DNA of 46,010 bases from the NCBI GenBank assembly GCA_022866545.1, contig JALHUO010000046.1, forward strand, positions 1-46,010, read 5' to 3'. Source of the DNA: Dehalococcoidia bacterium. GTDB lineage: Bacteria; Chloroflexota; Dehalococcoidia; GIF9; AB-539-J10. This document shows positions 7,819 to 31,491 of the stretch, piece by piece. A program made the position numbers and the translations under genes. Every line of letters starts with the position of its first letter. Within the stretch, counting starts at the first letter, position 1. The notes under the pieces were generated by a model that was given only the letters and a program-made list of their open reading frames with translations, was not told the DNA's origin and searched no databases.

Positions 7819-8907
7819 ATGGAGTTTAATGTAGCAGTTTTGCCCGGCGATGGCATCGGCCCGGAGGTTGTGGCCGAAGCGCTGAAGGTCTTGCAGGTGG
7901 TGAGCGAGAAATTCGGGCATAGCTTTCACCTCCGTGAAGGCCTGATAGGCGGCGTTGCTATAGATACTCTGGGCACAGCCCTCGCCGATGAGACCTTGAA
8001 GATGTGCAAGGAAAGCGACGCAGTGCTCCTCGGCGCTGTCGGCGGTTCCAAATGGGACAATCCTCAAGCCAAAATCCACCCTGAAGATGGGCTTCTGGCT
8101 TTGCGTAAAGGGCTGAAGCTGTTTGCCAATTTACGTCCCGTGAAAGCTTTCCCTATGCTGGTAGATTCTACCAACCTCAAGCCGGAGGTGGTTAAGGGAG
8201 TGGACCTGGTGGTGGTTAGAGAGCTTACCGGTGGGCTTTACTTTGGCCAGCCCAAAAAGCAGTGGCGGACTGCAAAGGGAAGGCATGCTGTTGATACTCT
8301 GGCTTATTCCGAGGTAGAAATTGAGCGCATATTGAGGGTAGGCTTTGAGCTGGCTCGCAGCCGCCGGAAGAAGCTGACTTCCGTGGACAAAGCCAATGTC
8401 CTTCAGTCATCCCGGCTATGGAGGCAGATTGCCATAGAAATCTCTGCCGATTACCTTGATATTGAGCTCAAACATATGCTGGTTGACGCCTGTGCCATGA
8501 GGTTTATTCAGCGCCCCGCTGAATTTGATGTTCTGGTTACAGAGAATATGTTTGGCGACATCCTTACTGACGAGGCTTCCATGCTGGCTGGCTCCATGGG
8601 TATGCTCCCTTCTGCCAGTTTAGCGGGAATTCCCAGGGGAAAAACCTTTGGCCTGTATGAGCCGATTCATGGCAGCGCTCCTAGCCGAGCGGGGCAAAAC
8701 CTGGCTAATCCGATCGCCACTATCCTGAGCGTAGCTATGATGCTTCGCTATTCTTTCGCTCTGGAGACGGAAGCTCAGGCTATCGAAAATGCTGTTCTGG
8801 CGACCCTGGAACAAGGTTATAGGACCTACGATATAATGTCGAACGGGAAAACCAGGGTAGGCACGAAAGAGATGGGAGACTTAATTGCTCAACAGCTGAA
8901 GGGTTAA
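7819..8907 (+). CDS. leuB: 3-isopropylmalate dehydrogenase
   Basis: 362 aa. [12 protein letters not shown]-terminus, LLGAVGG.KWD, NLRP, and the [24 protein letters not shown] signature of isocitrate/isopropylmalate dehydrogenases. Confidence 0.95.
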
Positions 8908-8918
8908 GGAGAGTCCTC

Positions 8919-10514
8919 ATGGCAAGAATACAGCTTTATGATACGACTCTAAGGGATGGCGCTCAGCAGGAAGGCATTTCCTTTTCCGTTGAAGATAAGC
9001 TCAGGATTTGCCAGAAGCTAGATGAGCTAGGCATCGACTTCGTTGAGGGTGGCTGGCCGGGCTCCAACCCTAAAGACTCTGAGTTTTTTGCCAGAGCACG
9101 GAATCTGCGCTTGACGCATTCCACTCTGGTGGCCTTTAGCAGCACCCGGCACTCAAATTGCCGGGCGGAAAGAGATCCTAATCTGCGGGCCTTGCTCCAA
9201 GCCAAAACCAATGTTGTGACTATCGTAGGAAAGGCCTGGGATAAGCAGGTAACTCGCGTTCTGGAAACAACGCTGGAAGAAAACATCAGCATGATTACAG
9301 ATTCCATAAGTTACCTCAGGGGGAAGAGACTGCGAGTTTTCTTCGATGCCGAGCACTTCTTCGATGGCTATAGAGATAATCCTGAATATACCTTGAAGGT
9401 GGTGATGGCTGCGGCCAAAGCCGGCGCAGAATGTGTGGTTCTTTGTGATACCAACGGCGGCAGCCTGCCGCAACAGATAACAGAGGCTGTTGAAGCTGTG
9501 CTGAAGGCAAGTTCTGCTCCTCTGGGTATTCATACCCATAATGATGCCGAGCTTGCTGTAGCTAACTCCCTGGCTGCGGTGGAAGCGGGAGTCATTCAGG
9601 TCCAGGGGGCCATTAATGGCTACGGTGAGCGCTGTGGCAACGCCAATCTCTGTTCTATCATACCGACTTTGAAGCTTAAGATGGGCATTGACTGCCTTAC
9701 CGACAAGCAACTGAATAAACTCAGCGACGTATCTCGCTATATATCAGAACTGGCCAACATGCCTCATTACGACCGGCTTCCATATGTAGGGGACGACGCC
9801 TTTACTCACAAGGGCGGGATTCACGTATCAGGCATAATAAAATGGGAAGATAGCTATCAGCACATAAGACCAAGTCTGGTAGGGAACCGCCCGCGTGTTG
9901 TCGTTTCTGAGCTGGCTGGCAAGGGGAGCATTGTCTTTAAAGCTAAGGAGCGCGGACTGCCTGTGCCTAAAGGCAAAGCAATTGAGGAAGTGCTGGAGCA
10001 AATCAAATCACTGGAGAAGCAGGGTTTTCAATACGATGTTGCCGAGGCGTCTTTCGACCTTCTGCTCCGGCGGGTTCAGCCTGACTATCGGGCACCTTTC
10101 GAGCTGGTCGACTTCATGGTCGTGGTTGAGAAACGGCGCCGTCCACCCACCAAAGGAAATCAGGAAGAGCCGTTGTCAGAAGCCACCATCAAAGTGAAGG
10201 TAGACGACAGAATAGTGCATACGGCTGCTGAAGGTGATGGCCCGGTCGATGCACTCGACAAGGCTCTGCGCAAAGCCTTGCTCCAGTTCTATCCTGACTT
10301 GACGGCTGTGAAACTGATTGACTACAAAGTGCGGATTCTGGAGGAAACGGCCGGGACTGCGTCTCAAGTTCGGGTGCTTATTGAGTCCAGCGATGGCAGG
10401 GAGAACTGGCGGACGGTGGGTAGCTCCACCAACATCATCGAAGCTAGCTGGCTGGCCCTGGCCGACAGTATGGAGTACTGGCTAACAAAGCGAGCCGGGA
10501 AAGCCAAGGGCTGA
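8919..10514 (+). CDS. cimA: citramalate synthase (LeuA-related, long form with C-terminal regulatory domain)
   Basis: 531 aa. LYDTTLRDGAQQEGISFS HMGL-like N-terminus, HTHND metal site and a LeuA-dimer-type C-terminal domain. Its length and its pairing with leuB fit CimA rather than LeuA. Confidence 0.75.
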   Translation: MARIQLYDTTLRDGAQQEGISFSVEDKLRICQKLDELGIDFVEGGWPGSNPKDSEFFARARNLRLTHSTLVAFSSTRHSNCRAERDPNLRALLQAKTNVVTIVGKAWDKQVTRVLETTLEENISMITDSISYLRGKRLRVFFDAEHFFDGYRDNPEYTLKVVMAAAKAGAECVVLCDTNGGSLPQQITEAVEAVLKASSAPLGIHTHNDAELAVANSLAAVEAGVIQVQGAINGYGERCGNANLCSIIPTLKLKMGIDCLTDKQLNKLSDVSRYISELANMPHYDRLPYVGDDAFTHKGGIHVSGIIKWEDSYQHIRPSLVGNRPRVVVSELAGKGSIVFKAKERGLPVPKGKAIEEVLEQIKSLEKQGFQYDVAEASFDLLLRRVQPDYRAPFELVDFMVVVEKRRRPPTKGNQEEPLSEATIKVKVDDRIVHTAAEGDGPVDALDKALRKALLQFYPDLTAVKLIDYKVRILEETAGTASQVRVLIESSDGRENWRTVGSSTNIIEASWLALADSMEYWLTKRAGKAKG

Positions 10515-12314: not shown

Positions 12315-12887
12315 TCACAAAGAGTAGATTCGCCTTCTTTCCCTGAGAATGAGACCGGCTATGAGTCCCAGCAACAACCCGCCGAGATGAGCCTGCCAGG
12401 CTATGCCGGGAAGGAAAGAAAACAGAAGGAAGATCAGGATTGCTGCCCAGAGTGGGATGGGGACCGGAATGGGAAATACAAGGACTGGTACTCTGGGGAG
12501 CATCACCGCCAGGGCTCCACCAAGGGCAAAAATGGCTCCCGAGGCTCCTATCCCTGTTGAATATGGATCTGCGAGAAGGATGAAGAGAATGTTTCCCGCC
12601 AGCCCTCCTAGAAAGAATATTGCCAGGAAGCTTTTCTCTCCTGCTGCCCGGATGAGGAAGCTTCCTAGAAAGTAGAGGCTTATCATATTGCATAGTATGT
12701 GCGCAAACCCACCATGGACGAACATGCTGGTTACGATGGTCCACGGTTGTTGAGAGAGCAGCCCTGGTGTCAACCCAAGGAGATTGATTACTGATTGTGG
12801 CCTTAGCAGGGTGATTATGAAGATCAGGACATTTAGAGCGACCAAGAACCACAGGAGATTCAAACTGACGGCGCGATAAGTTCGCAT
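12315..12887 (-). CDS. rhomboid family intramembrane serine protease
   Basis: Contains HGGFAHILCNM, the GASGAIFALGGA catalytic GxSG and a downstream His (WQAHLGG). The track ORF extends to 13031. I chose Met49 (ATG 12887) because the longer form would overlap the divergent aglB start. Confidence 0.85.
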   Translation of the reverse strand: MRTYRAVSLNLLWFLVALNVLIFIITLLRPQSVINLLGLTPGLLSQQPWTIVTSMFVHGGFAHILCNMISLYFLGSFLIRAAGEKSFLAIFFLGGLAGNILFILLADPYSTGIGASGAIFALGGALAVMLPRVPVLVFPIPVPIPLWAAILIFLLFSFLPGIAWQAHLGGLLLGLIAGLILRERRRIYSL

Positions 12888-13019
12888 CAGGCAATTATAG
12901 GCTAAATCTGGCTTCTGCTTCAACAAACTGTCTAGAGGAGCTCGTGGGTCATGGTGTATTGTAATATCTGGCGCATTAGGTTTATAATGGGCACAATATT
13001 TTCCTTGCAGGAGTCTTAA

Positions 13020-15452
13020 ATGAGCGAGCAAAGTCCAGAGAAAAAACGAAAGTTTCTCCCAATAGTCATAGTGGGCATAATCCTGGCAGCTCTCTGTGGC
13101 ATCTCACTGTACCTACGCCTGGCCCTGCCCTATGACCAGGTTTTTGTCAATAATGCGTCGGTCTGGTTTCGAGAGACTGACGCCTATTATTACATACGGC
13201 ACATAGAGACTATAGTTCACAACTTTCCCCACTTCAATACATTTGACCCTTATCAGTTCTACCCCGGTGGTGCGCCAGGACTTCTTCGGCCATTCTTCGC
13301 CTGGCTTGTCGCTGGAATTATTCTGCTTGTTAAGGGGGGGGCATCAACTCTGCATGCCATGGAAGCGGTGGCCGCCTACGTACCCCCTATTCTAGGCACT
13401 CTGACGCTCATCCCCGTTTACTTCATCGGCAAGGAACTGTTCAACCGTTGGGTGGGTGTAATTTCAGCCGCCCTGGTTATCATCATCCCCAGCGAATTTC
13501 TGCACCGCTCCCTGCTGGGCTTCACCGACCACCATGTCGCCGAGGTTTTGTTCAGCACCGTGTGCATGCTCTTTCTAATCATGGCCATTAGGCGAGCTCG
13601 GGAGAGAGAGATTTCCTTTGCCCACATTCTAAATAGAGACTGGTCAGCCGCAAGGAAGCCCCTCGTGTACACCCTGCTTGCTGGCATCTTCCTGGGTATT
13701 TACCTGCTGGCATGGACAGGAGCACTGCTGTTCGTGTTCATTATATTTGCTTACCTGGTGATTCAGTTCGTCGTGGACCACGTGAGGCATAAATCGACCG
13801 ACTATCTGTGCATTATCGGCACTCCTCTTTTCCTCATCGGCTATCTCATGCTTCTTCCCATATTGGGTGTAGGTAGTCTCGATATTTATCATGCTGCTAT
13901 GTTGATCGCCATAGTCATACCTATTGCCTTGGCTATCGTTTCAAGACTCATGGCACGCAAGGCTTTGAAACCTGTCTACTATCCCTTGACCTTGCTAGGA
14001 GTGGGTGTAATTGGGCTTGTTGCTCTGCGTGCCATCAACCCCTCCTTGTTTAACGGTATGTTCAGCCTATTTAGCATCTTCGCCCCACGTGGTGCTATGC
14101 TGACAGTGATGGAGGTGTCTCCCCTTCTTTTTCCGCAGGGCCAATTTTCTTTTCAAATGGCCTGGGGTAACTTTAATACCTCCTTCTTCATCTCAGTTGT
14201 TGCCATGGGCATGCTTATTTATGGCGCCATTAAGGGGAAAGGTGCCTACAGAATCCTGTTCCTGGTATGGAGCATAATAATGTTGCTGGCAGTCCTTGGG
14301 CAGCGCCGCTTTGGTTACTACTATACCGTAAGCGCCGCGTTGCTGACGGGGTATTTCTCTTGGAAAATGCTGGACGTTGCTGGCCTAAGCAAATTGCTGG
14401 TTAAGTCTAAGGAAGCAGTGAAGGCGGTTAAGAAGTTCAAGAAGAAGGAAAAGAAGAGCAGAGAACAAGCGAAAGCCGGAGGATTTATGCAGCCCAGAGG
14501 CGCCTGGGTGATGGTCATCGTTGTCGGAATAGTTCTATTCGCCATTGTCTTTTTACCCAGTATTTCCCCGGCTAAAGCACTTGGCGGGTCGCCAAATATG
14601 ATTATGGACGAGGGATGGTATAACTCACTTGTGTGGCTAAGGGATAACAGCCCCGAACCTTTTGATGACCCGGATTTCTACTATGAGCTGTACCCACCAC
14701 AGAACGAATTTGAATATCCCGCGACTGCCTACGGTGTGATGTCCTGGTGGGACTATGGCCACTTCATAATGCAGATTGCCCATCGCATACCCAATGCCAA
14801 TCCCGGTCAGGCTGGGGCCGTCCAGGCTGGCCACTTCTTTACCGCCCAGAATGAAACCGCAGCTAACGAAGTTGCCGACAAGGAAGGTACGAAATATGTG
14901 GTAATTGACTACATGATGGCAACTTCGAAGTTCTACGCCATGGCGGAGTGGGCCGGCAAAAGCGTGGATGAGTTTGAACAACGTTACTACGCGCCGGCGT
15001 ACAGCGACGCGCTACAGTACCTACCTTTGTTCTACACCGCATACTACAACTCCACTGTGGCCAGACTTTATAACTTTGACGGCGAAGCTGCAGTTCCGTC
15101 TGCAAACTCCACAGCAGCGATTTCTTGGCAATGGATGACGGGCACAGAACTATTAAATTACGGTTACAAGTGGATAATTTATTCTCAGTATCAAGTAGTG
15201 CCCATAAAAGCGGCGGCACGCTATAACGTAATTGTTGGCAGTCAGTTCTTCTCAAGTTCTGAAGAGGCTGAAACCTATGTCTCAGCTCAGCCATCGGGGA
15301 ATTATGACATAGGAGGCGTCAACCCCTTTGCTACCATCGTGCCTCTCGAAGCACTGAGCAGCTATGAGCGCGTTTATCCAGCTGGGGCCAATGTCACCAT
15401 CAACACGACAACCGTGAAGATTTTTGAGTATCTCGGCTCAGACGAATCCTGA
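13020..15452 (+). CDS. aglB: AglB/STT3-family oligosaccharyltransferase (GT-C, archaeal-type motifs)
   Basis: 810 aa, about 13 hydrophobic segments and a soluble C-terminal domain. Motifs RETDAYYY (E52/D54), GFTDHHVAE (D170-H172, E175), TVME (362-365), WWDYG (576-580, nt 14745-14759) and DK-type VIDYMMATSKFYAM. AGGAG SD lies 6 nt upstream. Confidence 0.9.
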   Translation: MSEQSPEKKRKFLPIVIVGIILAALCGISLYLRLALPYDQVFVNNASVWFRETDAYYYIRHIETIVHNFPHFNTFDPYQFYPGGAPGLLRPFFAWLVAGIILLVKGGASTLHAMEAVAAYVPPILGTLTLIPVYFIGKELFNRWVGVISAALVIIIPSEFLHRSLLGFTDHHVAEVLFSTVCMLFLIMAIRRAREREISFAHILNRDWSAARKPLVYTLLAGIFLGIYLLAWTGALLFVFIIFAYLVIQFVVDHVRHKSTDYLCIIGTPLFLIGYLMLLPILGVGSLDIYHAAMLIAIVIPIALAIVSRLMARKALKPVYYPLTLLGVGVIGLVALRAINPSLFNGMFSLFSIFAPRGAMLTVMEVSPLLFPQGQFSFQMAWGNFNTSFFISVVAMGMLIYGAIKGKGAYRILFLVWSIIMLLAVLGQRRFGYYYTVSAALLTGYFSWKMLDVAGLSKLLVKSKEAVKAVKKFKKKEKKSREQAKAGGFMQPRGAWVMVIVVGIVLFAIVFLPSISPAKALGGSPNMIMDEGWYNSLVWLRDNSPEPFDDPDFYYELYPPQNEFEYPATAYGVMSWWDYGHFIMQIAHRIPNANPGQAGAVQAGHFFTAQNETAANEVADKEGTKYVVIDYMMATSKFYAMAEWAGKSVDEFEQRYYAPAYSDALQYLPLFYTAYYNSTVARLYNFDGEAAVPSANSTAAISWQWMTGTELLNYGYKWIIYSQYQVVPIKAAARYNVIVGSQFFSSSEEAETYVSAQPSGNYDIGGVNPFATIVPLEALSSYERVYPAGANVTINTTTVKIFEYLGSDES

Positions 15453-16471: not shown

Positions 16472-17449
16472 GTGATTGTAGTTCAAACTCCTTTGCGAAT
16501 AAGTTTTGTCGGAGGAGGCACTGATTTTGATGACTTTTACTTATCCCAGGGTGGGGCGGTCATTAGTACTGCCATTGATAAATATGTATTTGTCATTGTA
16601 AAGGAAAGATTTGATGATCTAATTTGCCTGAACTACACGCAGAGAGAGCGAGTAGAAAGGGTAGATGACATCGGCCATGAACTTGTCAGAGAGGCTATGA
16701 GAATAACGGGAGTAGGCAAAGGGATAGAGATTACAACCCTTGCTGATGTACCTGCGGAGGGGACTGGCCTTGGTTCCTCGAGTAGTGTTACTGTCGGATT
16801 GCTTCAAGCCCTGTATGCTTACCAGGGTGAACTCAGGACAATCGAGACTTTAGCTCAGGAAGCATGCCGCATCGAGATAGACATACTGAAGCACCCCATA
16901 GGAAGACAAGATCAATACATCGCAGCATACGGCAATCTTCGCTTCATCACCTTCAGCGATGCTGGCGTTGAAGTTGAGAAAGTCGAGCTTCCCTCCCAAG
17001 AGAAGAGAAGGCTAAACGATTCTCTCCTCTGTTTCTATACGGGCATGACCAGAAAAGCAAGTGAAATTTTAGAGGAGCAGAAAGCCAACATAAATGACCG
17101 CCTTAGCGTGCTGGGTGAAATGAAAAAGCTTGCCTTCCGAGCGAAAGGTGCTATCCTGCAAGGTGCTTTTGATGAGTTGGGAGAGATTTTGCACTCAAGT
17201 TGGGAATTAAAAAAGACCCTTGCCAGCAAGATAACCAATCCCCAGATAGACGAAAGGTACGAAGCTGCTCGGAAGGCGGGAGCCATCGGCGGCAAGATTA
17301 CCGGAGCTGGTGGGGGTGGTTTTTTGCTTCTATATTGTCCGAAGGAAAAACAGGATGCAGTGAGAAAAACCCTCAAACTTCGAGAGCTTCCTTTCCGCTT
17401 TGAGTCAGACGGAAGCAAAGTAATTTTCAACTATAGGAGAGGCACTTGA
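16472..17449 (+). CDS. hddA: GHMP kinase, D-glycero-alpha-D-manno-heptose-7-phosphate kinase-like
   Basis: 325 aa with a GTG start after GGAGGGAG. PLRISFVGGGTDF N-terminus, GHMP motif PAEGTGLGSSSS and C-terminal GAGGGGF. Sits in an operon with gmhA, gmhB and a nucleotidyltransferase. Confidence 0.75.
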   Translation: MIVVQTPLRISFVGGGTDFDDFYLSQGGAVISTAIDKYVFVIVKERFDDLICLNYTQRERVERVDDIGHELVREAMRITGVGKGIEITTLADVPAEGTGLGSSSSVTVGLLQALYAYQGELRTIETLAQEACRIEIDILKHPIGRQDQYIAAYGNLRFITFSDAGVEVEKVELPSQEKRRLNDSLLCFYTGMTRKASEILEEQKANINDRLSVLGEMKKLAFRAKGAILQGAFDELGEILHSSWELKKTLASKITNPQIDERYEAARKAGAIGGKITGAGGGGFLLLYCPKEKQDAVRKTLKLRELPFRFESDGSKVIFNYRRGT

Positions 17450-18009
17450 ACGTCTTGGACACCATAAGGAAATACATTTCTGATATCAATGTAGCTTTAG
17501 GGAGGCTTCCGATAGACAAGATTGCTGAAGTTGTTGATTTGTTAGAAAAAGCACGACTTGAAGGCAATAAAGTTTTCATTTTTGGCAATGGCGGTTCAGC
17601 AGCTACCGCCTCACATTTCGCCAGTGACCTTTCAAAAGGAGCTATCAGCGAGGGAAAGCCAAGGATAAAGGCTTTTGCCTTGACTGACAACATACCCCTG
17701 CTTACAGCTTGGGCGAATGACACCTCTTATGAAAATGTTTTCGCTGAACAAGTGGAGAACTGTGTTGACCCTGGAGACATTGTGATTGGTATCAGCGGTA
17801 GTGGCAGTTCGCCGAATGTGCTTAAAGGTGTAAAAGTGGCGAAGAACAAGGGAGCTAATACCATCGGCTTTATTGGTTTCGACGGTGGGAAGCTTAAAAG
17901 CCTTGTGGATATTGCCATTATAGTGCCGAGCCATAATATGGAGCAGGTCGAGGATATACACCTGCTTCTTGAACATGTCATCACCACCTGTTTAAGAGAG
18001 GCACTTTAA
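17446..18009 (+). CDS. gmhA: phosphoheptose (sedoheptulose-7-phosphate) isomerase, SIS domain
   Basis: 187 aa. VFIFGNGGSAATASHFASDL, ISGSGSSPN and HLLLEH motifs. TTG start overlaps the hddA stop. Confidence 0.85.
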   Translation: MNVLDTIRKYISDINVALGRLPIDKIAEVVDLLEKARLEGNKVFIFGNGGSAATASHFASDLSKGAISEGKPRIKAFALTDNIPLLTAWANDTSYENVFAEQVENCVDPGDIVIGISGSGSSPNVLKGVKVAKNKGANTIGFIGFDGGKLKSLVDIAIIVPSHNMEQVEDIHLLLEHVITTCLREAL

Positions 18010-18010
18010 G

Positions 18011-18991
18011 ATGAATGTCCTGGTTACCGGCGGGGCAGGATACGTCGGAAGCATCGTTACCGGGCATTTACTACAACAGAAACACAAGGTAATTGTCGTA
18101 GATAATCTGCAACAAGGTCATAAGGAAGCAGTCCTGCCTCCGGCTGAGTTCGTTTTGACTGATATCTGCGATACATCAAGCCTTGAGAGCGCCTTCCGCC
18201 GGTTCAAGATTGATGCTGTAATGCACATGGCAGCCGAGACCGTAGTGGAATATTCCATGACCGATCCCAAAAGGTACTTTCATACCAATCTGCTGGGTGG
18301 GATGAACCTTCTTAATGCCATGCTGAAGCACGGTGTAGACAGGATCATCTATTCTTCTACTGCTGCTGTCTATGGTGAGCCCCACGGTATTCCCATAGAG
18401 GAAGACCATCCTGAAACTCCGATAAATAGCTACGGAGAATCAAAGTTGATGTTCGAGCGTATTCTGGACTGGTATGGCAGAGCCTATGGGCTAAAGCATA
18501 TATCTTTCAGGTATTTTTGTGCTGCTGGGGCAACAGAGCTTTTGGGTGAAGACCATCGTCCTGAGACCCACCTCATCCCGAACGTCCTTAAAGCAGCCTT
18601 GAACGAAAAAAATGCGGTTTCTGTATTTGGCACAGACTACCCGACGGAAGATGGAAGCTGCATCCGGGACTTCGTTCATGTGGTGGATATTGCCCGAGCT
18701 CATCTCGTAGCTATGGAGAAGATAGATAGTCTGAACGGGAACATCTATAACTTAGGAAATGGCAAGGGGTATTCGGTGCTCGAGGTCATCAAAATTGCAG
18801 AGAAAGTTGCAGGCGTGAGGATCCCCGTAAAATCTTGCCCCCGCCGTCTTGGAGACCCTGCAATACTAGTGGCCAGTGCAGACCGAGCTATGCGAGAATT
18901 AGGCTGGAAGCCTCAATTTTCCAGACCCGAAGATATCATCGAGAGCGCCTGGCAGTGGCTCAAGGGCCATCCTGATGGATACAAGCAATAG
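18011..18991 (+). CDS. galE: UDP-glucose/UDP-hexose 4-epimerase
   Basis: 326 aa. VLVTGGAGYVGS Rossmann motif, SSTAAVYG, YGESKLMFE (YxxxK), and RYFCAAGA and IRDFVHVVD typical of GalE. Confidence 0.85.
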   Translation: MNVLVTGGAGYVGSIVTGHLLQQKHKVIVVDNLQQGHKEAVLPPAEFVLTDICDTSSLESAFRRFKIDAVMHMAAETVVEYSMTDPKRYFHTNLLGGMNLLNAMLKHGVDRIIYSSTAAVYGEPHGIPIEEDHPETPINSYGESKLMFERILDWYGRAYGLKHISFRYFCAAGATELLGEDHRPETHLIPNVLKAALNEKNAVSVFGTDYPTEDGSCIRDFVHVVDIARAHLVAMEKIDSLNGNIYNLGNGKGYSVLEVIKIAEKVAGVRIPVKSCPRRLGDPAILVASADRAMRELGWKPQFSRPEDIIESAWQWLKGHPDGYKQ

Positions 18992-19751
18992 CCGCGTCAC
19001 CAAAGCGATGATACTTGCCGCAGGAGAAGGGACCAGGCTAAGGCCACTCACATTGGAAACCCCGAAGGTGCTCTTACCTGTAGCGGGTGTCCCTTTGATT
19101 TACTATACCCTTACCTGGCTCAGAAGCCATGGCATAGGAGAAGTATGCATCAATCTCCATCACCTGGCTAACAGGATAAAGGAGTCACTTGGAGATGGCT
19201 CTAGGTTCGGAGTCAAAGTGCATTACTCTGTCGAAGAAAGCCTGCTTGGGACTGCTGGTGGTGTGAAAAAAGTGGAGCACTTTTTTGATACCACTTTCGT
19301 TGTTGTCTACGGTGATGTCCTTACTGACTTCAATCTCTCAGCCATGATGGCATTTCATCAAAGGAAAAAGGCTATAGCCACGCTGGCAGTTACCAGAGTA
19401 TCCAATCCTTGGGAGACAGGCATCGTGAAAATGAATCGGGAGGGGAGGATTATTTCCTGTATCGAAAAACCCCCTAGGGGAACCGAAATGGGGAACATGG
19501 CAAATGGTGGGGTTTATGTCCTGGAAAGACAAGTTCTCGACTTCATTCCAAATCAAGGCTATTGCGATTTCGCCTACGACGTCTTTCCTAGGCTTGTAAG
19601 AGCGAACTTTCCTGTCTACGGGTATGTGCTTGGACACGAAGATTACCTCATTGACATTGGCGCCATTGACAAATATCTCAAAGCGAATGAGGACGTAAAA
19701 TCAGGGAAAGTGAAAATGACGTATGAAGAACAGAGCAGTGTTCCTGGATAG
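18975..19751 (+). CDS. hddC: sugar-1-phosphate nucleotidyltransferase (heptose-1-phosphate guanylyltransferase-like by context)
   Basis: 258 aa. ILAAGEGTRLRPLT..PKVLLPV signature, then YGDVLTD. Alternative start at 19008. Specificity is inferred only from the hddA/gmhA/gmhB neighbours. Confidence 0.65.
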   Translation: MDTSNSRVTKAMILAAGEGTRLRPLTLETPKVLLPVAGVPLIYYTLTWLRSHGIGEVCINLHHLANRIKESLGDGSRFGVKVHYSVEESLLGTAGGVKKVEHFFDTTFVVVYGDVLTDFNLSAMMAFHQRKKAIATLAVTRVSNPWETGIVKMNREGRIISCIEKPPRGTEMGNMANGGVYVLERQVLDFIPNQGYCDFAYDVFPRLVRANFPVYGYVLGHEDYLIDIGAIDKYLKANEDVKSGKVKMTYEEQSSVPG

Positions 19752-20277
19752 GGATGGCACTATTGCTCGGGATGTTCACTACTGCCGGCGGGCGGAGGAT
19801 TTCGAGCTGCTTTCCACCGTTCCCGAGGCAATAAAGCTTCTAAATGACAGCGGTTTCAAGGTTATAGTCATCACCAACCAGTCGGGTATTGCTAGAGGCT
19901 ATTTTACCGAAGAGGCACTGGCTCTAATTCACCAAAAGATGGAAGAGGAACTTGCCAGGCACAGTGCTAAAGTGGATGCTATATATTATTGCCCGCATCA
20001 TCCTGATGACGGCTGCGACTGTCGGAAGCCCAAGACTGGTCTTTTTCTCTTAGCTGCTGAAAAAATGGACGTTGATTTCAATTTGTCCTACGTGGTTGGG
20101 GACTTGCCCATGGATATAGAAGCTGGCAAAGCTTTAGGCTGTAAGACGGTTCTTGTAACCACGGGACCTAAGGCAGGAGAAGATATTCTTGACCCACCCG
20201 ACTACACTGCGAACAGCCTTATTAAAGCAGCCCTGTGGATAACAAAAGATGCCAATGTGGAAAATTCAGGATTGTAG
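19723..20277 (+). CDS. gmhB: D,D-heptose 1,7-bisphosphate phosphatase (HAD-IIIA)
   Basis: 184 aa. FLDRDGTI, ITNQSG and CPHHPDDGCDCRKP (zinc-binding insert typical of GmhB), then VGD..D. Confidence 0.85.
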   Translation: MKNRAVFLDRDGTIARDVHYCRRAEDFELLSTVPEAIKLLNDSGFKVIVITNQSGIARGYFTEEALALIHQKMEEELARHSAKVDAIYYCPHHPDDGCDCRKPKTGLFLLAAEKMDVDFNLSYVVGDLPMDIEAGKALGCKTVLVTTGPKAGEDILDPPDYTANSLIKAALWITKDANVENSGL

Positions 20278-20566
20278 TTCCGTTGGTTTGGGTCTTAAGA
20301 TGCTATCAGGCAAGACAGTATTCCCATTCTATTGATAACTGTGTTTTTGTTGGTGAAGATTGTAATGAGTGTGAAATCTCATCACACGTTTGCTTGTACC
20401 CTTGTACGTGTAATAGCATAATACATAAATAATAGAACAAGAAACACCGCAGGTATGTGGGACTATGACAGTTAGCTAAGATAAGTTGCTGTGAAACAGA
20501 TAGATGAAATGCCCTTTCTGGAAGAACAATAAACTGGGAAAGGAAGCACACGATGGTGAGCTCGAT

Positions 20567-21280
20567 ATGAAGAAGTGTGTGCTGTCAACTTGGAGAGAAA
20601 CATTAAGCGATGTTCTAGCAAATGCAGGTGCGGCTTACAGATGCGTTTCAAAGAGGATACATCAATCGCCTCAAGAGAACAGGCTAATCCGGTGGTTTAG
20701 AGATAACGGAGACAAAACGCTTCGGCTTAATTATGATTTGGATGGTAACTCATTAGTGTTCGACATGGGGGGTTATGAAGGACAGTGGGCAAGTGATATT
20801 TTTTCAAAGTATTGTTGTACAATTCATGTTTTTGAGCCGGTAATAGAATTTGCAGATAAGATTGAAAAGAGGTTTTCGAGAAACAGGAAGATATTCGTCC
20901 ACAAATTCGGCTTATCAAACGGTAGCAAAAAGGCTGCGATTGCACTGGCGCAAGATGGGTCCTCACTTTTCAGACAGGGCAAGCAGACTAGAGAGATAAG
21001 CCTTGTCAGAGCGGTAGACTTTCTGCGAGAGAACAATATCCAAAATATTGAACTGATGAAGATTAACATTGAGGGAGGGGAATATGACCTTCTCGACCAT
21101 TTAATTGACACTGGATTCGTAAGGCATATTAAGAATATACAGGTTCAGTTTCATGACTTTGTTCCTAATGCTGAGCTGAGAATGACAGGAATTCAACAAC
21201 GGCTGCAAGAGACACACGCGTTGACCTACCAGTATTCATTTGTTTGGGAGAATTGGAGACTTAAAGATAATGTTTCATGA
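20567..21280 (+). CDS. FkbM-family methyltransferase
   Basis: Contains VFDMGGYEGQW, HVFEP and MKINIEGGEYDLL (FkbM signature). The track ORF starts at 20504; Met22 (20567) gives the usual length. The gene is visibly AT-rich. Confidence 0.75.
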   Translation: MKKCVLSTWRETLSDVLANAGAAYRCVSKRIHQSPQENRLIRWFRDNGDKTLRLNYDLDGNSLVFDMGGYEGQWASDIFSKYCCTIHVFEPVIEFADKIEKRFSRNRKIFVHKFGLSNGSKKAAIALAQDGSSLFRQGKQTREISLVRAVDFLRENNIQNIELMKINIEGGEYDLLDHLIDTGFVRHIKNIQVQFHDFVPNAELRMTGIQQRLQETHALTYQYSFVWENWRLKDNVS

Positions 21281-21416
21281 TATTTGGGGTACATTATTGC
21301 ATGTGCGCCATGTTCGGCGGATTGTCTTCCAATTGGCAGAGGTGGCAGTGCCCGGAGGGCTGTTTGCTGCCATTATCGAGCGGATAACTCGGGGTTCGCG
21401 GCTAGGCCCTGGCTAA
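21270..21416 (+). pseudogene. 48-codon relic resembling the central part of a class I SAM methyltransferase
   Basis: Hand translation gives MFHDIWGTLLHVRHVRRIVFQLAEVAVPGGLFAAIIERITRGSRLGPG*. This fits the D.....L.HV......l.e..RvL.PGG.l pattern, but no motif I is present. Below the ORF-track size cut-off. Confidence 0.35.
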
Positions 21417-21752
21417 ACGCGCACCAGGAGAAACGGGGAGCGTGATCAAGGGGGAAGGCTTGGCTCTTTTACGAGGTTCAAGAGCTCGCATGGGGCTCGG
21501 CTCTGGGATGGTTTGATAACCAGGCACAAAGGGTGATATATTGTCGGCACCAGAGGCGATGAGGGCTGGATATCGCCTCATCGGGAGTTGAAATGGGAAA
21601 TCCCGGATAGAGTTTTTTCCTGGCTGCTACCCGAGTAACTGGGCAAGGACAAAGATAACTCACCTCGATGGTGAAAAGGCGAGACTGTATAGCTGGGCTT
21701 TAGCGAAGGTCAAATGATAGGCCCTGGTTGAAACTCCTCGGAGGTCATCAGA

Positions 21753-22661
21753 ATGGCCAGAAAGTACATGCATCCTGCAGGCATTCCCCGCGAGATGGGT
21801 CGGCGAGGCCACGAACTGGATGACCGCCTAGCAGGAGTGCTCCATTTGATGGAGCATGCACCTCTGGACGATGTGCATACTGTTCTGGACGTTGGCTTCG
21901 GTGAAGGGCAGATTTCCAAGTGGCTGGCCCAAAGGGGAAAGGTCGTAACCGCCACCGGTATCGAAATCAGTTCGTACGATGTTGACACTGCTGCCCTAAA
22001 GGAGCAATTGGGTATCTCCATTCACGAATGTAAAGCAGAGAAGATGCCCTTTGCAGACAAATCGTTTGATGCAGCAGTGATGAGCCATACCCTAGAGCAT
22101 TGCCCCAATGTGGCGATGGCCCTCGGCGAGCTATGGCGAGTCCTCAGAGAAGGAGGGCGCCTATTTGTTTTTGTCCCGCCGCACGACAACTACGTCTGTG
22201 CTGGACACGTGTCGATGGGGTGGACAGTTGGTCAACTCATGTATGTACTTCTGCTGGCTGGATTCAAGGTGAAGGATGGCATGTTCTTTGACGGTGGCGG
22301 TTACAACATCTGCGGATTCGTAACAAAGGACTCTGCACAAGAACTTCCTCCGTTACGAGGCGACCGCGGGGATATTCGCATTCTAAATGACGCAGGACTA
22401 TTTCCCATGCATATCCTCTCTCGTGAAGCCGCCACGAACTATGAGGGACCATATCTGCGTTCGCATGACGATTTCAACGACGGGTTTTGGGGGAAGATCC
22501 GGTCGGTCAACTGGCCCGCCCATGGATTCGATGATGCCAGTTCCCGTAAGACAATTCTACGCAGGATCGCAGTGCTTATCTCGCGAATATTGCCCACACC
22601 GCTCAGGACACGACTTGCGACAATATTGACCGCGGCAGGAAATTTGTTTCAGGAAAGTTGA
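21753..22661 (+). CDS. class I SAM-dependent methyltransferase with a ~110-aa C-terminal extension
   Basis: 302 aa. Motif I VLDVGFGEGQ, then MPFADKSFDAAVMSHTLEH and WRVLREGGRLFVFVP. Confidence 0.8.
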   Translation: MARKYMHPAGIPREMGRRGHELDDRLAGVLHLMEHAPLDDVHTVLDVGFGEGQISKWLAQRGKVVTATGIEISSYDVDTAALKEQLGISIHECKAEKMPFADKSFDAAVMSHTLEHCPNVAMALGELWRVLREGGRLFVFVPPHDNYVCAGHVSMGWTVGQLMYVLLLAGFKVKDGMFFDGGGYNICGFVTKDSAQELPPLRGDRGDIRILNDAGLFPMHILSREAATNYEGPYLRSHDDFNDGFWGKIRSVNWPAHGFDDASSRKTILRRIAVLISRILPTPLRTRLATILTAAGNLFQES

Positions 22662-22696
22662 ATTGATCTCTTTTCAACTCCCTAAACCCCCCAATC

Positions 22697-23302
22697 TTGG
22701 AGGACTTAGGAAGCTGGGGGATACCCCCTAAACGAGGTGTGATGAATGAGGATTGGAGATGCGGGCAGATTGACTATGTGAGCGATATGGCCTGGATCCG
22801 GGTTCCCGCGGCGAGCTTCGACCATCTGTTCTGCGCAGAGGTTTTGGAACACGTGCGTGAGTCGATAGTTGCAGTCAAGGAGTTCAATCGCATACTTAAG
22901 CTTGGCGGATATCTCTTTTTATCAGCGCCTTTGGGGGCGGGCCTGCACCAGCAGCCGTATCACTATCACGGGGGATTCACGCCACACTTTTATCGTAAGT
23001 TCCTACCTGAGTATGGCTTTGGGACCCTAAAGATGGCGCCCAACGGGGGGTCCTTCCGCCATTCCCTTCAGGAAGTCAATCGTGCGTGGGGCATAATTCA
23101 GTCACATCGCAACTACAGAAGGCGGCATCCCATGTGGTGGGTGCTGAGGTTGGCATTCAGCCATTTCATCCCGATCTGGTTCTCTCGATTGGACGACGAG
23201 ATATTTATCGAGGAATTCACTGTTGGCTACCATATCGAAACTCAGAAAGTAGGGGGGTCAACTGAGAAGCAAAGCCTGAATCTTTGTACATCCGTTTTAT
23301 GA
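22697..23302 (+). CDS. methyltransferase-like protein lacking a canonical N-terminal SAM-binding motif (possibly decayed)
   Basis: 201 aa with a TTG start. VPAASFDHLFCAEVLEHV and FNRILKLGGYLFLSAP match motifs post-I to III. Only a degenerate LEDLGSWG occupies the motif I position, and the frame opens just 30 nt upstream. Confidence 0.5.
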   Translation: MEDLGSWGIPPKRGVMNEDWRCGQIDYVSDMAWIRVPAASFDHLFCAEVLEHVRESIVAVKEFNRILKLGGYLFLSAPLGAGLHQQPYHYHGGFTPHFYRKFLPEYGFGTLKMAPNGGSFRHSLQEVNRAWGIIQSHRNYRRRHPMWWVLRLAFSHFIPIWFSRLDDEIFIEEFTVGYHIETQKVGGSTEKQSLNLCTSVL

Positions 23303-23315
23303 ATAACGAGCAATC

Positions 23316-27264: not shown

Positions 27265-27434
27265 ACAGATGCGGCACCAGCTCAAACGAAACAGCATCTG
27301 TGAAAGAGTTTGCATCGGCTGCCATATACGCATGAAAAAGGAGATCTATGTGAAGATCTGTCGGTCAAGGATACCCATAGCTATAAGCTATGTTTGTTTC
27401 TGAGAAAACTTTGAAAGGAGGCTGTGGTATAAAG

Positions 27435-28220: not shown

Positions 28221-28229
28221 GAGATTTGT

Positions 28230-31470: not shown

Positions 31471-31491
31471 CCTCTGGAGTGGATAGGAAGC

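What the first reader, a model, noticed from the sequence alone, without database searches (positions are those of the whole stretch)
13020..15452. Archaeal-type AglB/STT3 oligosaccharyltransferase in a bacterial-looking neighbourhood
This is an 810-aa polytopic protein with about 13 hydrophobic segments followed by a ~290-aa soluble C-terminal domain. Five motifs read directly from the translation. R-E52-T-D54-AYYY lies in the first loop. GFT-D170-H-H-VA-E175 follows. T362-V-M-E365 is a TIxE-type loop-5 motif. W576-W-D-Y-G580 sits at nt 14745-14759. VI-D630-YMMATS-K637-FYA-M641 is a DK-type (K-x3-M) helix rather than the MI motif of Campylobacter-type PglB. The DHH and DK-type signatures are what I associate with archaeal AglB. 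The surrounding DNA, however, carries features I associate with Bacteria: a DUF559 gene, a PF05635-type four-helix-bundle gene, REP-like hairpins and TTGACA-N17-TATAAA promoters. Functionally characterised bacterial N-OSTs are PglB-type. An AglB-type enzyme beside a ~29-kb glycan island in a bacterium (my guess is Chloroflexota-like, possibly S-layer-bearing) would be an essentially unstudied N-glycosylation system. The C-terminal domain itself carries several N-x-S/T sequons (NET, NST x2, NVT, NTT).
Basis: partly seen in the sequence, partly recalled or inferred. Interest (0 to 1): 0.8.

Follow-up and report, generated by a model that had tools for sequence, protein, structure and literature searches.

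The report
Archaeal-type N-glycosylation enzyme in bacteria
A sediment bacterium of the class Dehalococcoidia really does encode an intact archaeal-type (AglB) enzyme for attaching sugar chains to protein asparagines, at the head of a strain-variable sugar-gene cassette, and this apparently unstudied bacterial N-glycosylation system was probably borrowed from methanogen-related archaea.

Summary
ORF 13020-15452 (+) encodes an 810-aa STT3/AglB oligosaccharyltransferase. It scores 619 bits against TIGR04154 (cutoff 450) and aligns to Archaeoglobus AglB-L at E=2e-75. Every catalytic motif aligns to the solved structure.

The refutation test (an archaeal contig) fails. The window is a whole contig of a 'Dehalococcoidia bacterium' MAG. 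A 243-kb contig that is 97.5% nt-identical and colinear carries an RpoD-type sigma-70 about 7 kb past the window's end. LeuB and CimA pass the bacterial-type models and fail the archaeal ones. A 47%-identical homologue sits next to bL9, DnaB and Pol III delta' on a 194-kb contig.

All 23 full-length Dehalococcoidia/Chloroflexota OSTs form one clade (bootstrap 100) inside Methanocellales/ANME-1/Methanosarcinales AglBs. The catalytic residues are invariant in that clade down to 35% identity.

The OST is the first gene of a cassette that is swapped between conspecific strains; four different glycan islands were seen. Its C-terminal domain is hypervariable. The island has an AglJ-like polyprenyl-phosphate GT2 and no phosphoglycosyl-transferase.

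PGAP already names the protein, but no paper in the searchable library describes it. Verdict: a new bacterial member of a known enzyme kind. Activity, lipid donor and protein targets are inferred, not shown.

The parts
13020..15452 (+). AglB-type oligosaccharyltransferase (STT3/GT66), 810 aa; NCBI MCJ7575551.1
   Evidence: Pfam STT3 + AglB_core-like; TIGR04154 619 bits (cutoff 450); AfAglB-L E=2e-75.
13179..13181 (+). D54, first acidic catalytic residue in external loop 1 (aligns to AfAglB-L D47)
   Evidence: alignment; invariant in 23/23 bacterial and 56/56 archaeal sequences.
13527..13544 (+). D170-H171-H172-V-A-E175, second metal-binding motif (aligns to AfAglB-L D161-H162-H163...E166)
   Evidence: D170, H171, H172 and E175 are 23/23 in the bacterial clade.
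14103..14114 (+). T362-V-M-E365, TIXE motif of external loop 5 (aligns to AfAglB-L T357-E360)
   Evidence: T362 and E365 are 23/23.
14745..14759 (+). W576-W-D-Y-G580, WWDYG motif
   Evidence: invariant in all 79 aligned sequences.
14907..14942 (+). D630...K637-F-Y-A-M641, DK-type helix that binds the sequon Ser/Thr (with an insertion, as in AfAglB-L)
   Evidence: Gapless alignment to the AfAglB-L segment DIEMETGKYYAM; D630 20/23, K637 20/23, M641 18/23.
14970..15449 (+). C-terminal peripheral domain (aa 651-810), beta-rich and hypervariable between strains
   Evidence: 49% aa identity to the conspecific allele against 83-88% for the rest of the protein; nt identity 37-62% at 14900-15300. It is the most divergent part in every pairwise comparison. 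Not alignable to AfAglB-L.
12315..12947 (-). Rhomboid intramembrane protease, divergent partner of the OST; last conserved backbone gene before the variable cassette
   Evidence: Pfam Rhomboid 114 bits. The pairing is conserved in L081, L085, L086, L088 and L091 only. 95-97% identical in the conspecific contig.
12894..12988 (.). Divergent intergenic region with two sigma-70-like sites (TTGTAA-18-TATAAT on +; TTGAAG-18-TATAAT on -)
   Evidence: consensus matches only, and the region-wide count is not significant.
41963..42841 (-). AglJ/PpgS/DPM1-like GT2 with two C-terminal TM helices: candidate polyprenyl-monophosphate-sugar synthase (priming enzyme)
   Evidence: NCBIfam best hits: AglJ 155.7 bits, PpgS 129.9, Dol-P hexose transferase 80 (all below their cutoffs). 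TM helices seen in the translation. Homologues lie 0.8-8.4 kb from the OST in 4 bacterial and 5 archaeal loci.
25714..27264 (+). MatE/Wzx-like polytopic protein: candidate flippase for the lipid-linked glycan
   Evidence: Pfam MatE. Polysacc_synt/MatE proteins are the commonest OST neighbours in 16 Dehalococcoidia loci.
16472..20277 (+). Nucleotide-heptose module: HddA-like kinase, GmhA isomerase, epimerase, sugar-1-P nucleotidyltransferase, HAD phosphatase
   Evidence: all NCBIfam hits below equivalog cutoffs. 86-96% identical copy follows the OST in L074.
20504..25555 (+). FkbM and SAM methyltransferases (20504-23302), a GT1-like glycosyltransferase (23316-24494) and a GT2 (24491-25555)
27390..32772 (+). 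Methyltransferase, GT10-like (fucosyltransferase-like) GT, GDP-mannose 4,6-dehydratase, Fcl-like GDP-fucose synthase, RfbH/ColD-like PLP enzyme
   Evidence: Gmd Pfam 476 bits; Fcl 293 bits; RfbH 395 bits against a cutoff of 423.
33029..40734 (-). Three GT4 glycosyltransferases, three NAD-dependent sugar epimerases/dehydratases and UDP-GlcNAc 2-epimerase
43333..45108 (-). GlmS (glutamine-fructose-6-phosphate transaminase)
   Evidence: NCBIfam TIGR01135 689 bits.
7819..10514 (+). Backbone LeuB and CimA, used as domain markers
   Evidence: LeuB TIGR00169 506 bits (above 353) while archaeal LEU3_arch gives 285 (below 410). CimA TIGR00977 718 bits (above 450) while LEU1_arch fails. Relatives at 88-98% identity are named Dehalococcoidia.
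41514..43287 (-). DUF559 fragment (41514-41783) and PF05635 four-helix-bundle protein (42838-43287) flanking the AglJ-like GT2

Best explanation
Window 13020-15452 encodes a functional AglB-type oligosaccharyltransferase that is truly chromosomal in a Dehalococcoidia (Chloroflexota) bacterium. It belongs to a single deep bacterial clade of AglBs. That clade descends from an AglB of the 'Methanotecta' euryarchaea (Methanocellales / ANME-1 / Syntrophoarchaeum / Methanosarcinales), acquired by horizontal transfer.

Proposed mechanism. Shown: the domain architecture, the catalytic residues, the bacterial host, the clade structure and the cassette structure. Inferred: everything biochemical.
1. Nucleotide sugars are made by the island's own modules (heptose; GDP-6-deoxy/dideoxy-hexose; UDP-ManNAc; GlcN-6-P).
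2. A glycan is built on a polyprenyl phosphate carrier at the cytoplasmic face. It is most likely primed by the AglJ/PpgS-like GT2, giving a monophosphate linkage as in Euryarchaeota. GT4 and GT2 enzymes elongate it and methyltransferases decorate it.
3. The Wzx/MatE-like protein flips it across the membrane.
4. The OST transfers it en bloc to Asn in N-X-S/T sequons of exported proteins, most plausibly S-layer or other envelope proteins. It uses the D54 / D170-H172 / E365 metal site, with the WWDYG and DK helix holding the +2 Ser/Thr.

The OST is the first gene of a cassette that is exchanged between conspecific strains, in the manner of an O-antigen-type locus.
For: Identity of the enzyme: Pfam STT3 + AglB_core-like; TIGR04154 619 bits against 450; AfAglB-L E=2e-75 with all motifs aligned, including the phosphate-site Arg (AfR426 to R430) (Taguchi 2021); family profile 314 bits to AfAglB-L and no PglB hit.

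Bacterial host: MAG label and PGAP names. L089 is 97.5% nt-identical and colinear with the window, and encodes a 490-aa four-region sigma-70. LeuB and CimA are bacterial-type. The L009 OST is flanked by YqeY, bL9, DnaB, DnaD-like, DnaC-like and Pol III delta' on a 194-kb contig. Homologues sit on contigs up to 1.2 Mb, and the same backbone occurs on contigs of 138-260 kb.

Single clade and selection: all 23 bacterial sequences are monophyletic at bootstrap 100. They are nested with ANME-1/Syntrophoarchaeum (88) and Methanocellales (100). Catalytic residues are 23/23 invariant although identity falls to 35%.

Pathway context: AglJ-like GT2. No ORF of 150 aa or more in the 46 kb matches PF00953 or PF02397. 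Wzx-like proteins, GTs and sugar-nucleotide genes are the commonest neighbours across 16 loci.

Cassette: four different islands behind the same backbone, with a sharp identity breakpoint at the OST start.

Plausibility: peptidoglycan loss, S-layers and widespread uppS/bacA in Dehalococcoidia (Palmer 2023); transfer of the archaellum from Methanotecta into Dehalococcoidia/Anaerolineae.
Against: There is no biochemical or glycoproteomic evidence, so activity, acceptor proteins and glycan structure are all inferred. The monophosphate-donor inference rests on the absence of a PGT from one 46-kb contig and on a GT2 that scores below every equivalog cutoff; a PGT could lie elsewhere in the genome. 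No PGF-CTERM or archaeosortase signal was found near any bacterial OST, so the 'archaeosortase A-associated' part of the family name is unsupported here. The only structurally studied bacterial archaellum is O-glycosylated, not N-glycosylated. The tree is NJ on the top 80 hits without an outgroup, so the direction and number of transfers are inferred from distribution, not rooted. The AlphaFold model was too poor to use.
Confidence: 0.8

Rival explanations
1. The contig is archaeal (or chimeric) and was mis-binned into a bacterial MAG, so this is a routine archaeal agl locus.
For: Two contigs that carry near-identical OST/island sequence are binned as 'Bathyarchaeia' (L034 and L074). The best profile is an archaeal subfamily model. 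The Mre11/Rad50-like neighbours score best against archaeal models, though far below their cutoffs.
Against: A 243-kb contig that is 97.5% nt-identical and colinear carries RpoD sigma-70. LeuB and CimA pass the bacterial-type models and fail the archaeal ones. A clade-mate OST lies about 600 bp from bL9/DnaB and near Pol III delta'. The same backbone occurs on contigs of 138-260 kb from independent samples. The 'Bathyarchaeia' contigs are only 2.4 and 8.6 kb long.
Confidence: 0.02
2. The protein is a non-OST GT-C enzyme (ArnT/PMT-like), or a decaying relic of a transferred gene with no N-glycosylation activity.
For: Some homologues show a weak PMT_2 Pfam hit. No activity data exist.
Against: STT3/AglB profiles dominate by far. 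All catalytic and sequon-binding residues are invariant or nearly so across a clade that diverges to 35% identity. The ORFs are intact in more than 120 clusters. The gene is persistently linked to glycan-assembly genes.
Confidence: 0.03
3. The enzyme is a functional N-OST but uses a pyrophosphate-linked (undecaprenyl-PP) donor primed by a phosphoglycosyl-transferase encoded elsewhere, as in Campylobacter PglB. In that case the AglJ-like GT2 only supplies a side-branch sugar added outside the membrane.
For: Bacterial surface-glycan pathways are generally Und-PP based. uppS and bacA are widespread in the class. The GT2 is below all equivalog cutoffs. Only 46 kb of the genome is visible.
Against: The OST belongs to the euryarchaeal AglB lineage, whose solved member binds dolichol-monophosphate. 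No PGT is present in the 46-kb island. AglJ-like GT2s recur next to this OST clade in both domains.
Confidence: 0.25
4. The OST mainly serves the horizontally acquired archaellum or archaeal-type pili of Chloroflexota, N-glycosylating archaellins rather than an S-layer.
For: The donor and recipient groups match those of the archaellum transfer. Archaeal archaellins are heavily N-glycosylated.
Against: No archaellum gene appears among the top 25 neighbour families of 16 loci. The one bacterial archaellum solved carries O-glycans. Genome-wide co-occurrence was not testable here.
Confidence: 0.1

Closest known systems
Archaeoglobus fulgidus AglB-L (PDB 3WAJ, 3WAK, 5GMY, 7E9S)
   Same: About 13-TM GT-C fold followed by a C-terminal core domain. 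The alignment covers 640 residues at E=2e-75. D47/D54, DHH, TIXE, WWDYG, the DK-type helix with insertion and the phosphate-site Arg are all conserved.
   Different: The host is a bacterium. The last ~150 residues (651-810) do not align and are hypervariable between strains. The native lipid carrier cannot be archaeal dolichol unless the host makes it.
TIGR04154 'archaeo_STT3' subfamily (AglBs of archaeosortase-A-bearing Euryarchaeota such as Methanosarcinales and Halobacteria)
   Same: Scores 619 bits against a cutoff of 450. Phylogenetically nested among Methanocellales, ANME-1 and Methanosarcinales AglBs.
   Different: No PGF-CTERM tails near any bacterial OST, whereas the same scan found them in three Methanosarcinales loci. 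Archaeosortase presence was not testable.
Campylobacter PglB and the pgl locus (the characterised bacterial N-OST system)
   Same: A bacterial N-OST encoded beside the genes that build its glycan. It is also thought to derive from an archaeal transfer (Lombard 2016).
   Different: No detectable profile similarity to any PglB chain at E<=10. DK-type rather than MI motif. No PglC-type phosphoglycosyl-transferase in the island; instead there is an AglJ-like polyprenyl-phosphate GT2. The phylum is different.
Horizontally acquired archaellum of Chloroflexota (Nat Microbiol 2025, PMC12488501)
   Same: The same inferred donor (Methanotecta euryarchaea) and recipient (Dehalococcoidia/Anaerolineae), and likewise an archaeal cell-surface machine working in a monoderm bacterium.
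   Different: A different machine. That paper reports O-glycosylation and does not mention an OST.
O-antigen / capsule-type hypervariable glycan loci
   Same: A conserved chromosomal site, a sharp identity breakpoint, and unrelated gene sets between conspecific strains.
   Different: Here the transferase that couples the glycan to its acceptor is an N-OST. It lies inside the swapped segment and has a hypervariable outer domain.

Membership tests
STT3/AglB/PglB oligosaccharyltransferases (GT66, Pfam PF02516) | STT3 membrane-domain profile above the gathering score | tested here: met
   PF02516 98.7 bits against 24.5, residues 33-445.
STT3/AglB/PglB oligosaccharyltransferases (GT66, Pfam PF02516) | Acidic/metal-binding residues in EL1 and the second DXD-like motif, and the TIXE/SVSE-type EL5 motif, aligned to catalytic positions of a solved OST | tested here: met
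   D54 to AfD47; D170/H172 to AfD161/H163; T362/E365 to AfT357/E360. All invariant in 23 bacterial and 54-56 of 56 archaeal sequences, except T362 at 50 of 56.
STT3/AglB/PglB oligosaccharyltransferases (GT66, Pfam PF02516) | WWDYG motif in the C-terminal domain | tested here: met
   W576-G580, invariant in 79/79 sequences.
STT3/AglB/PglB oligosaccharyltransferases (GT66, Pfam PF02516) | Catalyses en-bloc transfer of a lipid-linked glycan to Asn of N-X-S/T | not testable with these tools
   Requires an in vitro assay or glycoproteomics.
Archaeal AglB, TIGR04154 subfamily | Whole-protein score above the curated subfamily cutoff | tested here: met
   619.3 bits against 450, residues 20-804.
Archaeal AglB, TIGR04154 subfamily | AglB core domain (PF22627) with a DK-type, not MI-type, Ser/Thr-binding helix | tested here: met
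   PF22627 80 bits. D630...K637-x3-M641 aligns without gaps to the AfAglB-L DK helix. Motif definition from Taguchi 2021.
Archaeal AglB, TIGR04154 subfamily | Phylogenetic placement inside euryarchaeal AglBs | tested here: met
   NJ tree: the bacterial clade (bootstrap 100) groups with ANME-1/Syntrophoarchaeum (88) and Methanocellales (100). Limited sampling and no outgroup.
Archaeal AglB, TIGR04154 subfamily | Co-occurrence with archaeosortase A and PGF-CTERM substrates (the basis of the family's name) | tested here: inconclusive
   No PGF-CTERM tail in the window or any bacterial locus, while three Methanosarcinales loci were positive. Only about 10 kb on each side was visible, and archaeosortase itself could not be searched.
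Archaeal AglB, TIGR04154 subfamily | Encoded in an archaeal genome | tested here: not met
   The host is bacterial: sigma-70 on a conspecific 243-kb contig; bL9, DnaB and Pol III delta' beside a clade-mate; bacterial-type LeuB and CimA.
Bacterial PglB-type OST | Sequence/profile similarity to Campylobacter PglB, and the MI motif | tested here: not met
   No PglB chain at E<=10 in the profile search of the PDB. The helix is DK-type.
Bacterial PglB-type OST | Und-PP-linked donor primed by a phosphoglycosyl-transferase (PglC/WecA type) in the locus | tested here: not met
   No PF02397 or PF00953 hit among the ORFs of 150 aa or more that were scanned in the 46-kb window. A PGT elsewhere in the genome is not excluded.
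ArnT/PMT-like GT-C (non-OST) | Best profile match to PMT/ArnT families and absence of WWDYG | tested here: not met
   No PMT/ArnT hit for the window protein at E<=1. WWDYG is present.

The most novel reading that the evidence does not exclude
After losing peptidoglycan, the Dehalococcoidales/marine-sediment radiation rebuilt its envelope along archaeal lines. On this reading an S-layer (and possibly archaella) is N-glycosylated by a horizontally acquired AglB that uses polyprenyl-monophosphate-linked glycans, which would be the first euryarchaeal-style N-glycosylation pathway operating in Bacteria. The OST would also be part of a serotype-like cassette whose hypervariable outer domain diversifies together with the strain-specific glycan, under phage or predator pressure.
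Probability: 0.3. Interest if true: 0.82.

Novelty: new member of a known kind. Interest (0 to 1): 0.62.

Why it matters
Characterised bacterial N-glycosylation is essentially the PglB system of Campylobacterota and some Desulfobacterota. The field's own generalisation assigns the DK motif to Eukarya and some Archaea, and the MI motif to Eubacteria.

This finding is a second, independent and much more archaeal-like N-OST lineage. It is widespread in Dehalococcoidia, one of the most abundant bacterial groups in subsurface and marine sediments: more than 120 protein clusters at 65% identity or above, and at least 23 GTDB species genomes.

It fits with, and extends, the recent discovery that Chloroflexota took over the archaellum from the same archaeal donors. 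It also offers a concrete explanation for how peptidoglycan-less Dehalococcoidia decorate their S-layer, an idea raised in 2016 without an enzyme.

Three things become directly testable: which lipid carrier an archaeal OST uses in a bacterial membrane, whether OST alleles co-evolve with glycan cassettes, and whether these enzymes are useful for glyco-engineering with relaxed or different donor specificity.

Tried and rejected
1. tRNA and Rfam scans of the window for domain-diagnostic RNAs found nothing. In the long loci they found only tRNAs.
2. An exact-sequence lookup of the OST in the contig index returned 'not on record', although the protein is in the cluster collection.
I therefore ran no fold search and make no fold claim. 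Only residues ~650-770 (beta-rich) were confident.
4. A PGF-CTERM/archaeosortase-substrate scan was negative in the bacterial loci and positive in three archaeal controls.
5. I tested whether the OST's C-terminal domain tracks island type. It does not: three Rml-type loci share only 52-69% identity there. The co-adaptation idea is therefore unsupported by this crude test.
6. I tested the rhomboid-OST pairing as a conserved functional module. It is confined to the window's own sub-lineage. A rhomboid-glycosylation link exists in Haloferax but is only suggestive here.
8. I misread one column (glyoxalase instead of LeuB near Methanosarcinaceae AglBs). This is corrected in the notebook.
9. The flanks of L023 (1.2-Mb contig) gave two-component and tRNA genes but no strictly bacteria-specific marker. 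L009 and L089 supplied those instead.


Full report

Yes. The ORF listing returns a single ATG-initiated ORF at 13020..15452 on the + strand, 810 aa. A Kyte-Doolittle scan gives about 13 hydrophobic segments up to residue ~515, followed by a ~295-aa hydrophilic domain.

The protein passes three profiles:
- Pfam STT3: 98.7 bits, residues 33-445.
- Pfam AglB_core-like: 80 bits, residues 532-634.
- NCBIfam TIGR04154 'oligosaccharyl transferase, archaeosortase A system-associated': 619.3 bits against a curated cutoff of 450, over residues 20-804.

Its best solved relative is Archaeoglobus fulgidus AglB-L (3WAJ/5GMY), at E=2e-75 over residues 20-659.

| Window | AfAglB-L |
|---|---|
| D54 | D47 |
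| G-F-T-D170-H-H172 | G-F-N-D161-H-H163 |
| T362-V-M-E365 | T357-I-A-E360 |
| W576-WDY-G580 (nt 14745-14759, as stated) | WWDYG |
| V-I-D630-YMMATS-K637-FYA-M641 | V-S-D-IEMETG-K-YYA-M (gapless) |

The phosphate-site arginine that Taguchi et al. 2021 point to (AfR426) aligns to R430.

**2. Is the host a bacterium?**

(a) Exact-sequence lookup shows the window is the whole 46,010-bp contig of an NCBI MAG labelled 'Dehalococcoidia bacterium' (proteins MCJ7575539 to MCJ7575580). PGAP already calls the OST (MCJ7575551.1) 'oligosaccharyl transferase, archaeosortase A system-associated'. A bin label is not proof of origin. Indeed, two short contigs that carry the same OST and island (L034, 2.4 kb; L074, 8.6 kb; OST 73-82% identical, heptose genes 86-96%) are binned as 'Bathyarchaeia'.

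(b) LeuB passes the bacterial-type equivalog TIGR00169 (506 bits against 353) and fails the archaeal LEU3_arch model (285 against 410). CimA passes TIGR00977 (718 against 450) and fails LEU1_arch. LeuB has more than 100 relatives at 88-98% identity. Every organism name attached to them is Dehalococcoidia, except one Phycisphaerae-labelled MAG.

(c) This is the decisive line. L089 is a 243,144-bp JGI contig that is 97.4-97.6% nucleotide-identical and colinear with window positions 1-10522 and 11372-12990. Its backbone proteins are 94-99.7% identical to the window's. About 7 kb beyond the window's left end it encodes a 490-aa protein with sigma-70 regions 1.2, 2, 3 and 4 and canonical RpoD motifs. 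Sigma-70 is specific to Bacteria.

(d) In L009, a 193,872-bp Dehalococcoidales contig, an OST 47% identical to the window's lies about 600 bp from a run of hallmark bacterial replication and translation genes. These are YqeY, ribosomal protein bL9, the DnaB helicase, a DnaD-like protein, a DnaC/IstB-like loader, PSP1 and DNA polymerase III delta'.

Other homologues sit on contigs of 124 kb, 167 kb and 1.2 Mb. The archaeal-contig hypothesis is therefore rejected.

**3. What is the evolutionary picture?**

From the GTDB-species scan I extracted 78 near-full-length homologues and aligned them with the window protein. I built an NJ tree from 692 columns with Kimura distances and 100 bootstraps.
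- All 23 sequences labelled Dehalococcoidia or Chloroflexota form one clade with 100% support and no archaeal sequence inside. This clade includes the window, its conspecifics, L009 and the 1.2-Mb contig L023.
- The clade groups with ANME-1/Syntrophoarchaeum sequences (88%).
- Together with a Methanocellales group, it is separated from Methanosarcinaceae and Methanothrix AglBs (100%).

Pairwise identity is 35-96% within the bacterial clade (median 48%) and 32-50% to archaeal sequences. Despite that depth, D54, D170, H171, H172, E175, T362, E365 and WWDYG are invariant in 23/23. D630 and K637 are each kept in 20/23. This argues for long-term purifying selection on OST function.

A profile of the window's family hits AfAglB-L at 314 bits, human STT3B at 1e-9 and STT3A at 3e-6. 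It hits no Campylobacter PglB chain even at E<=10.

The simplest reading is one old transfer of an AglB from a 'Methanotecta' euryarchaeon into Dehalococcoidia, followed by diversification. There are caveats: the method is NJ, sampling is limited to the top 80 hits, and there is no outgroup. Direction is inferred from the universal presence of AglB in Archaea against its patchy presence in Bacteria. [quoted passage not shown]

**4. What surrounds it?**

Upstream is a conserved housekeeping backbone: AP-endonuclease-2-fold protein, IlvE/PabC-like aminotransferase, PabA, an Mre11/Rad50-like pair, glyoxalase, LeuB, CimA, a methyltransferase, an alpha/beta-hydrolase and a divergently transcribed rhomboid.

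Downstream is a ~29-kb glycan island containing:
- a nucleotide-heptose module (HddA-like kinase, GmhA, epimerase, nucleotidyltransferase, HAD phosphatase);
- FkbM-type and SAM-dependent methyltransferases;
- GT1-like, GT2, GT10-like and three GT4 glycosyltransferases;
- a MatE/Wzx-like polytopic protein;
- Gmd, an Fcl-like enzyme and an RfbH/ColD-like PLP enzyme;
- several epimerases and UDP-GlcNAc 2-epimerase;
- a 292-aa GT2 with two C-terminal TM helices;
- GlmS.

That 292-aa GT2 scores best against AglJ (156 bits), PpgS (130 bits) and the haloarchaeal Dol-P hexose transferase (80 bits), all below their equivalog cutoffs. This places it in the polyprenyl-monophosphate-sugar synthase class.

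None of the scanned ORFs of 150 aa or more matches a phosphoglycosyl-transferase family (PF00953, PF02397). AglJ-like GT2 homologues lie 0.8-8.4 kb from the OST in four other Dehalococcoidia loci and five Methanocellales-type loci.

In a census of 141 ORFs within 6.5 kb of the OST in 16 deeper Dehalococcoidia loci, the commonest families were Wzx-type Polysacc_synt (7), methyltransferases (7), sugar-nucleotide dehydratases/epimerases (5), GT2 (5), NTP-transferases (4) and MatE (4).

**5. A cassette that includes the OST.**

In the window's own lineage the backbone up to the rhomboid is conserved, but what follows the OST differs:

| Island type | Where seen |
|---|---|
| Heptose / 6-deoxyhexose | this window |
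| RmlABCD + Wzx + pyruvyl-transferase | L081 (260-kb contig), L085 (138 kb), a 159-kb contig |
| UDP-sugar dehydrogenase / acetyltransferase / aminotransferase | L086 |
| RfbH-like + E3-type reductase + methyltransferases + NeuB | L091, on the conspecific 243-kb contig |

Against that conspecific contig, nucleotide identity follows this profile:
- 97-100% through the rhomboid, to about position 12,900;
- 80-94% across the OST from 13,100 to 14,900;
- 37-62% at 14,900-15,300;
- no homology downstream.

At the protein level the TM and catalytic parts are 83-88% identical, but residues 651-810 are only 49% identical. The C-terminal ~150 residues are the most divergent part in all 15 pairwise comparisons among six alleles.

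However, three Rml-type loci do not share C-terminal alleles (52-69% identity). A simple 'outer domain matches glycan type' model is therefore not supported by this test.

**6. How it most likely works.**

What is shown: the enzyme family, the catalytic residues, the bacterial host, the clade and the cassette structure.

What is inferred: a glycan is assembled on a polyprenyl phosphate. uppS and bacA are widespread in the class (Palmer 2023). The glycan is probably primed as a monophosphate-linked sugar by the AglJ-like GT2, as in Euryarchaeota. It is then elongated, methylated, flipped by the Wzx/MatE-like protein and transferred by the OST to N-X-S/T sequons of exported proteins.

Likely targets are S-layer or other envelope proteins, for three reasons:
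- Dehalococcoidales and the marine radiation lost peptidoglycan and carry S-layers.
- Wasmund et al. 2016 had already hypothesised S-layer glycoproteins from a scaffold with Gmd, Fcl and 'archaea-like' glycosyltransferases, without naming an OST.
- Chloroflexota acquired a complete archaellum from the same donor group.

The main mechanistic rival is a pyrophosphate-linked donor primed by a PGT encoded elsewhere. I give it about 0.25.

**7. Comparison with the known, and novelty.**

By every sequence test this is a member of the AglB family, and specifically of the TIGR04154 subfamily. The only family 'feature' it fails is being encoded in an archaeon. The archaeosortase/PGF-CTERM association implied by the family name finds no support in the visible flanks.

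It is not a PglB. It contradicts the generalisation that Eubacteria carry the MI motif.

In the searchable library no paper combines Dehalococcoid* with AglB, STT3 or oligosaccharyl*. The four papers that mention both AglB and Chloroflex* do so incidentally. Subscription literature could not be searched.

Because automated annotation already names these proteins, I rate this a new (bacterial) member of a known kind rather than a new kind. Interest is moderately high. It is a second, independent, archaeal-style N-glycosylation lineage in Bacteria. It occurs in an environmentally dominant class and has an unusual population-genetic structure. It also has a clear experimental path.

Noticed in passing
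L074 (CAYHEV010000083.1, 8.6 kb) and L034 (CAYGWT010000189.1, 2.4 kb): Two contigs binned as 'Candidatus Bathyarchaeia archaeon' carry the window's OST (82% and 73% identical). L074 also carries the same heptose-module genes (86-96%) and downstream methyltransferases (79-99%). They belong to the window's Dehalococcoidia lineage and are almost certainly mis-binned.
   Followed up: partly
L062 (JAYENE010000232.1, 3.4 kb, 'Thermodesulfobacteriota bacterium'): This bacterial-labelled OST nests inside the Methanosarcinales AglB clade in the NJ tree, not with the Dehalococcoidia clade. It is either a mis-binned archaeal contig or a separate transfer.
   Followed up: no
window 14970-15449 (OST residues 651-810): The OST's C-terminal peripheral domain is hypervariable: 49% aa identity between conspecific strains whose flanking genes are 95-99% identical. 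It is the most divergent part in all 15 allele pairs, but it does not track the island type.
   Followed up: partly
window 3661-6959 (+): An Mre11-like phosphoesterase (375 aa) and a Rad50/SMC-like ATPase (724 aa) form a conserved backbone pair. Their best NCBIfam hits are archaeal Mre11/Rad50 models, but far below the cutoffs, with SbcD similar. Their affiliation is unresolved.
   Followed up: no
window 12215-12258 and 41473-41516: A REP-like element with an internal CCCTCTCCC...GGGAGGG hairpin occurs twice, as inverted copies (44 nt, 77% complementary). One copy lies between the hydrolase and the rhomboid, the other abuts the DUF559 fragment. It generates spurious ORFs with 'PLPxRER..VRVNS' translations.
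   Followed up: partly
window 29447-32772 (+) and 28230-29447 (+): Gmd, an Fcl-like reductase/epimerase and an RfbH/ColD-like PLP enzyme (395 bits against a cutoff of 423) lie in a row. From my knowledge of the pathway, this is the layout of GDP-colitose (3,6-dideoxyhexose) pathways rather than plain GDP-fucose. A GT10-like (fucosyltransferase-family) GT sits just upstream.
   Followed up: no
window 10523-11371: The SAM methyltransferase gene (10579-11106) lies in an ~850-bp segment that is absent from the otherwise 97.5%-identical 243-kb contig L089. It is a strain-level indel in the backbone.
   Followed up: partly
window 15453-16471: There is a ~1-kb stretch between the OST and the first island gene with no ORF that matches any Pfam family. 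It is non-homologous between conspecific strains and may be the cassette junction or a regulatory region.
   Followed up: partly
window 14850-14858 (N611-E-T): One sequon in the OST's own core domain is conserved in 36 of 37 close homologues and aligns to N-E-S in A. fulgidus AglB-L. The other six sequons are poorly conserved.
   Followed up: partly
L032, L033, L036, L037, L039, L041, L043, L045-L047 and other Methanosarcinaceae loci: A LeuB-family gene (31-37% identical to the window's LeuB) lies within 10 kb of AglB in many Methanosarcinaceae, while a bacterial-type LeuB lies 4 kb upstream of the OST in the window lineage. This is probably coincidence. I first misread this column as the glyoxalase.
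   Followed up: no
window 12315-12947 (-) and L081, L085, L086, L088, L091: A rhomboid protease is the invariable divergent neighbour of the OST in the window's sub-lineage only. In Haloferax volcanii a rhomboid (rho2) deletion truncates an N-glycan of the S-layer glycoprotein (PMC11985538). A functional link here is possible but untested.
   Followed up: partly
window 41122-41783 (-) and 42838-43287 (-): Small genes of mobile or defence flavour sit inside the island around the AglJ-like GT2: a nucleotidyltransferase-domain protein, a DUF559 endonuclease fragment and a PF05635 four-helix-bundle protein. A PF05635 + HicB pair also occurs in the island of a related 159-kb contig.
   Followed up: no
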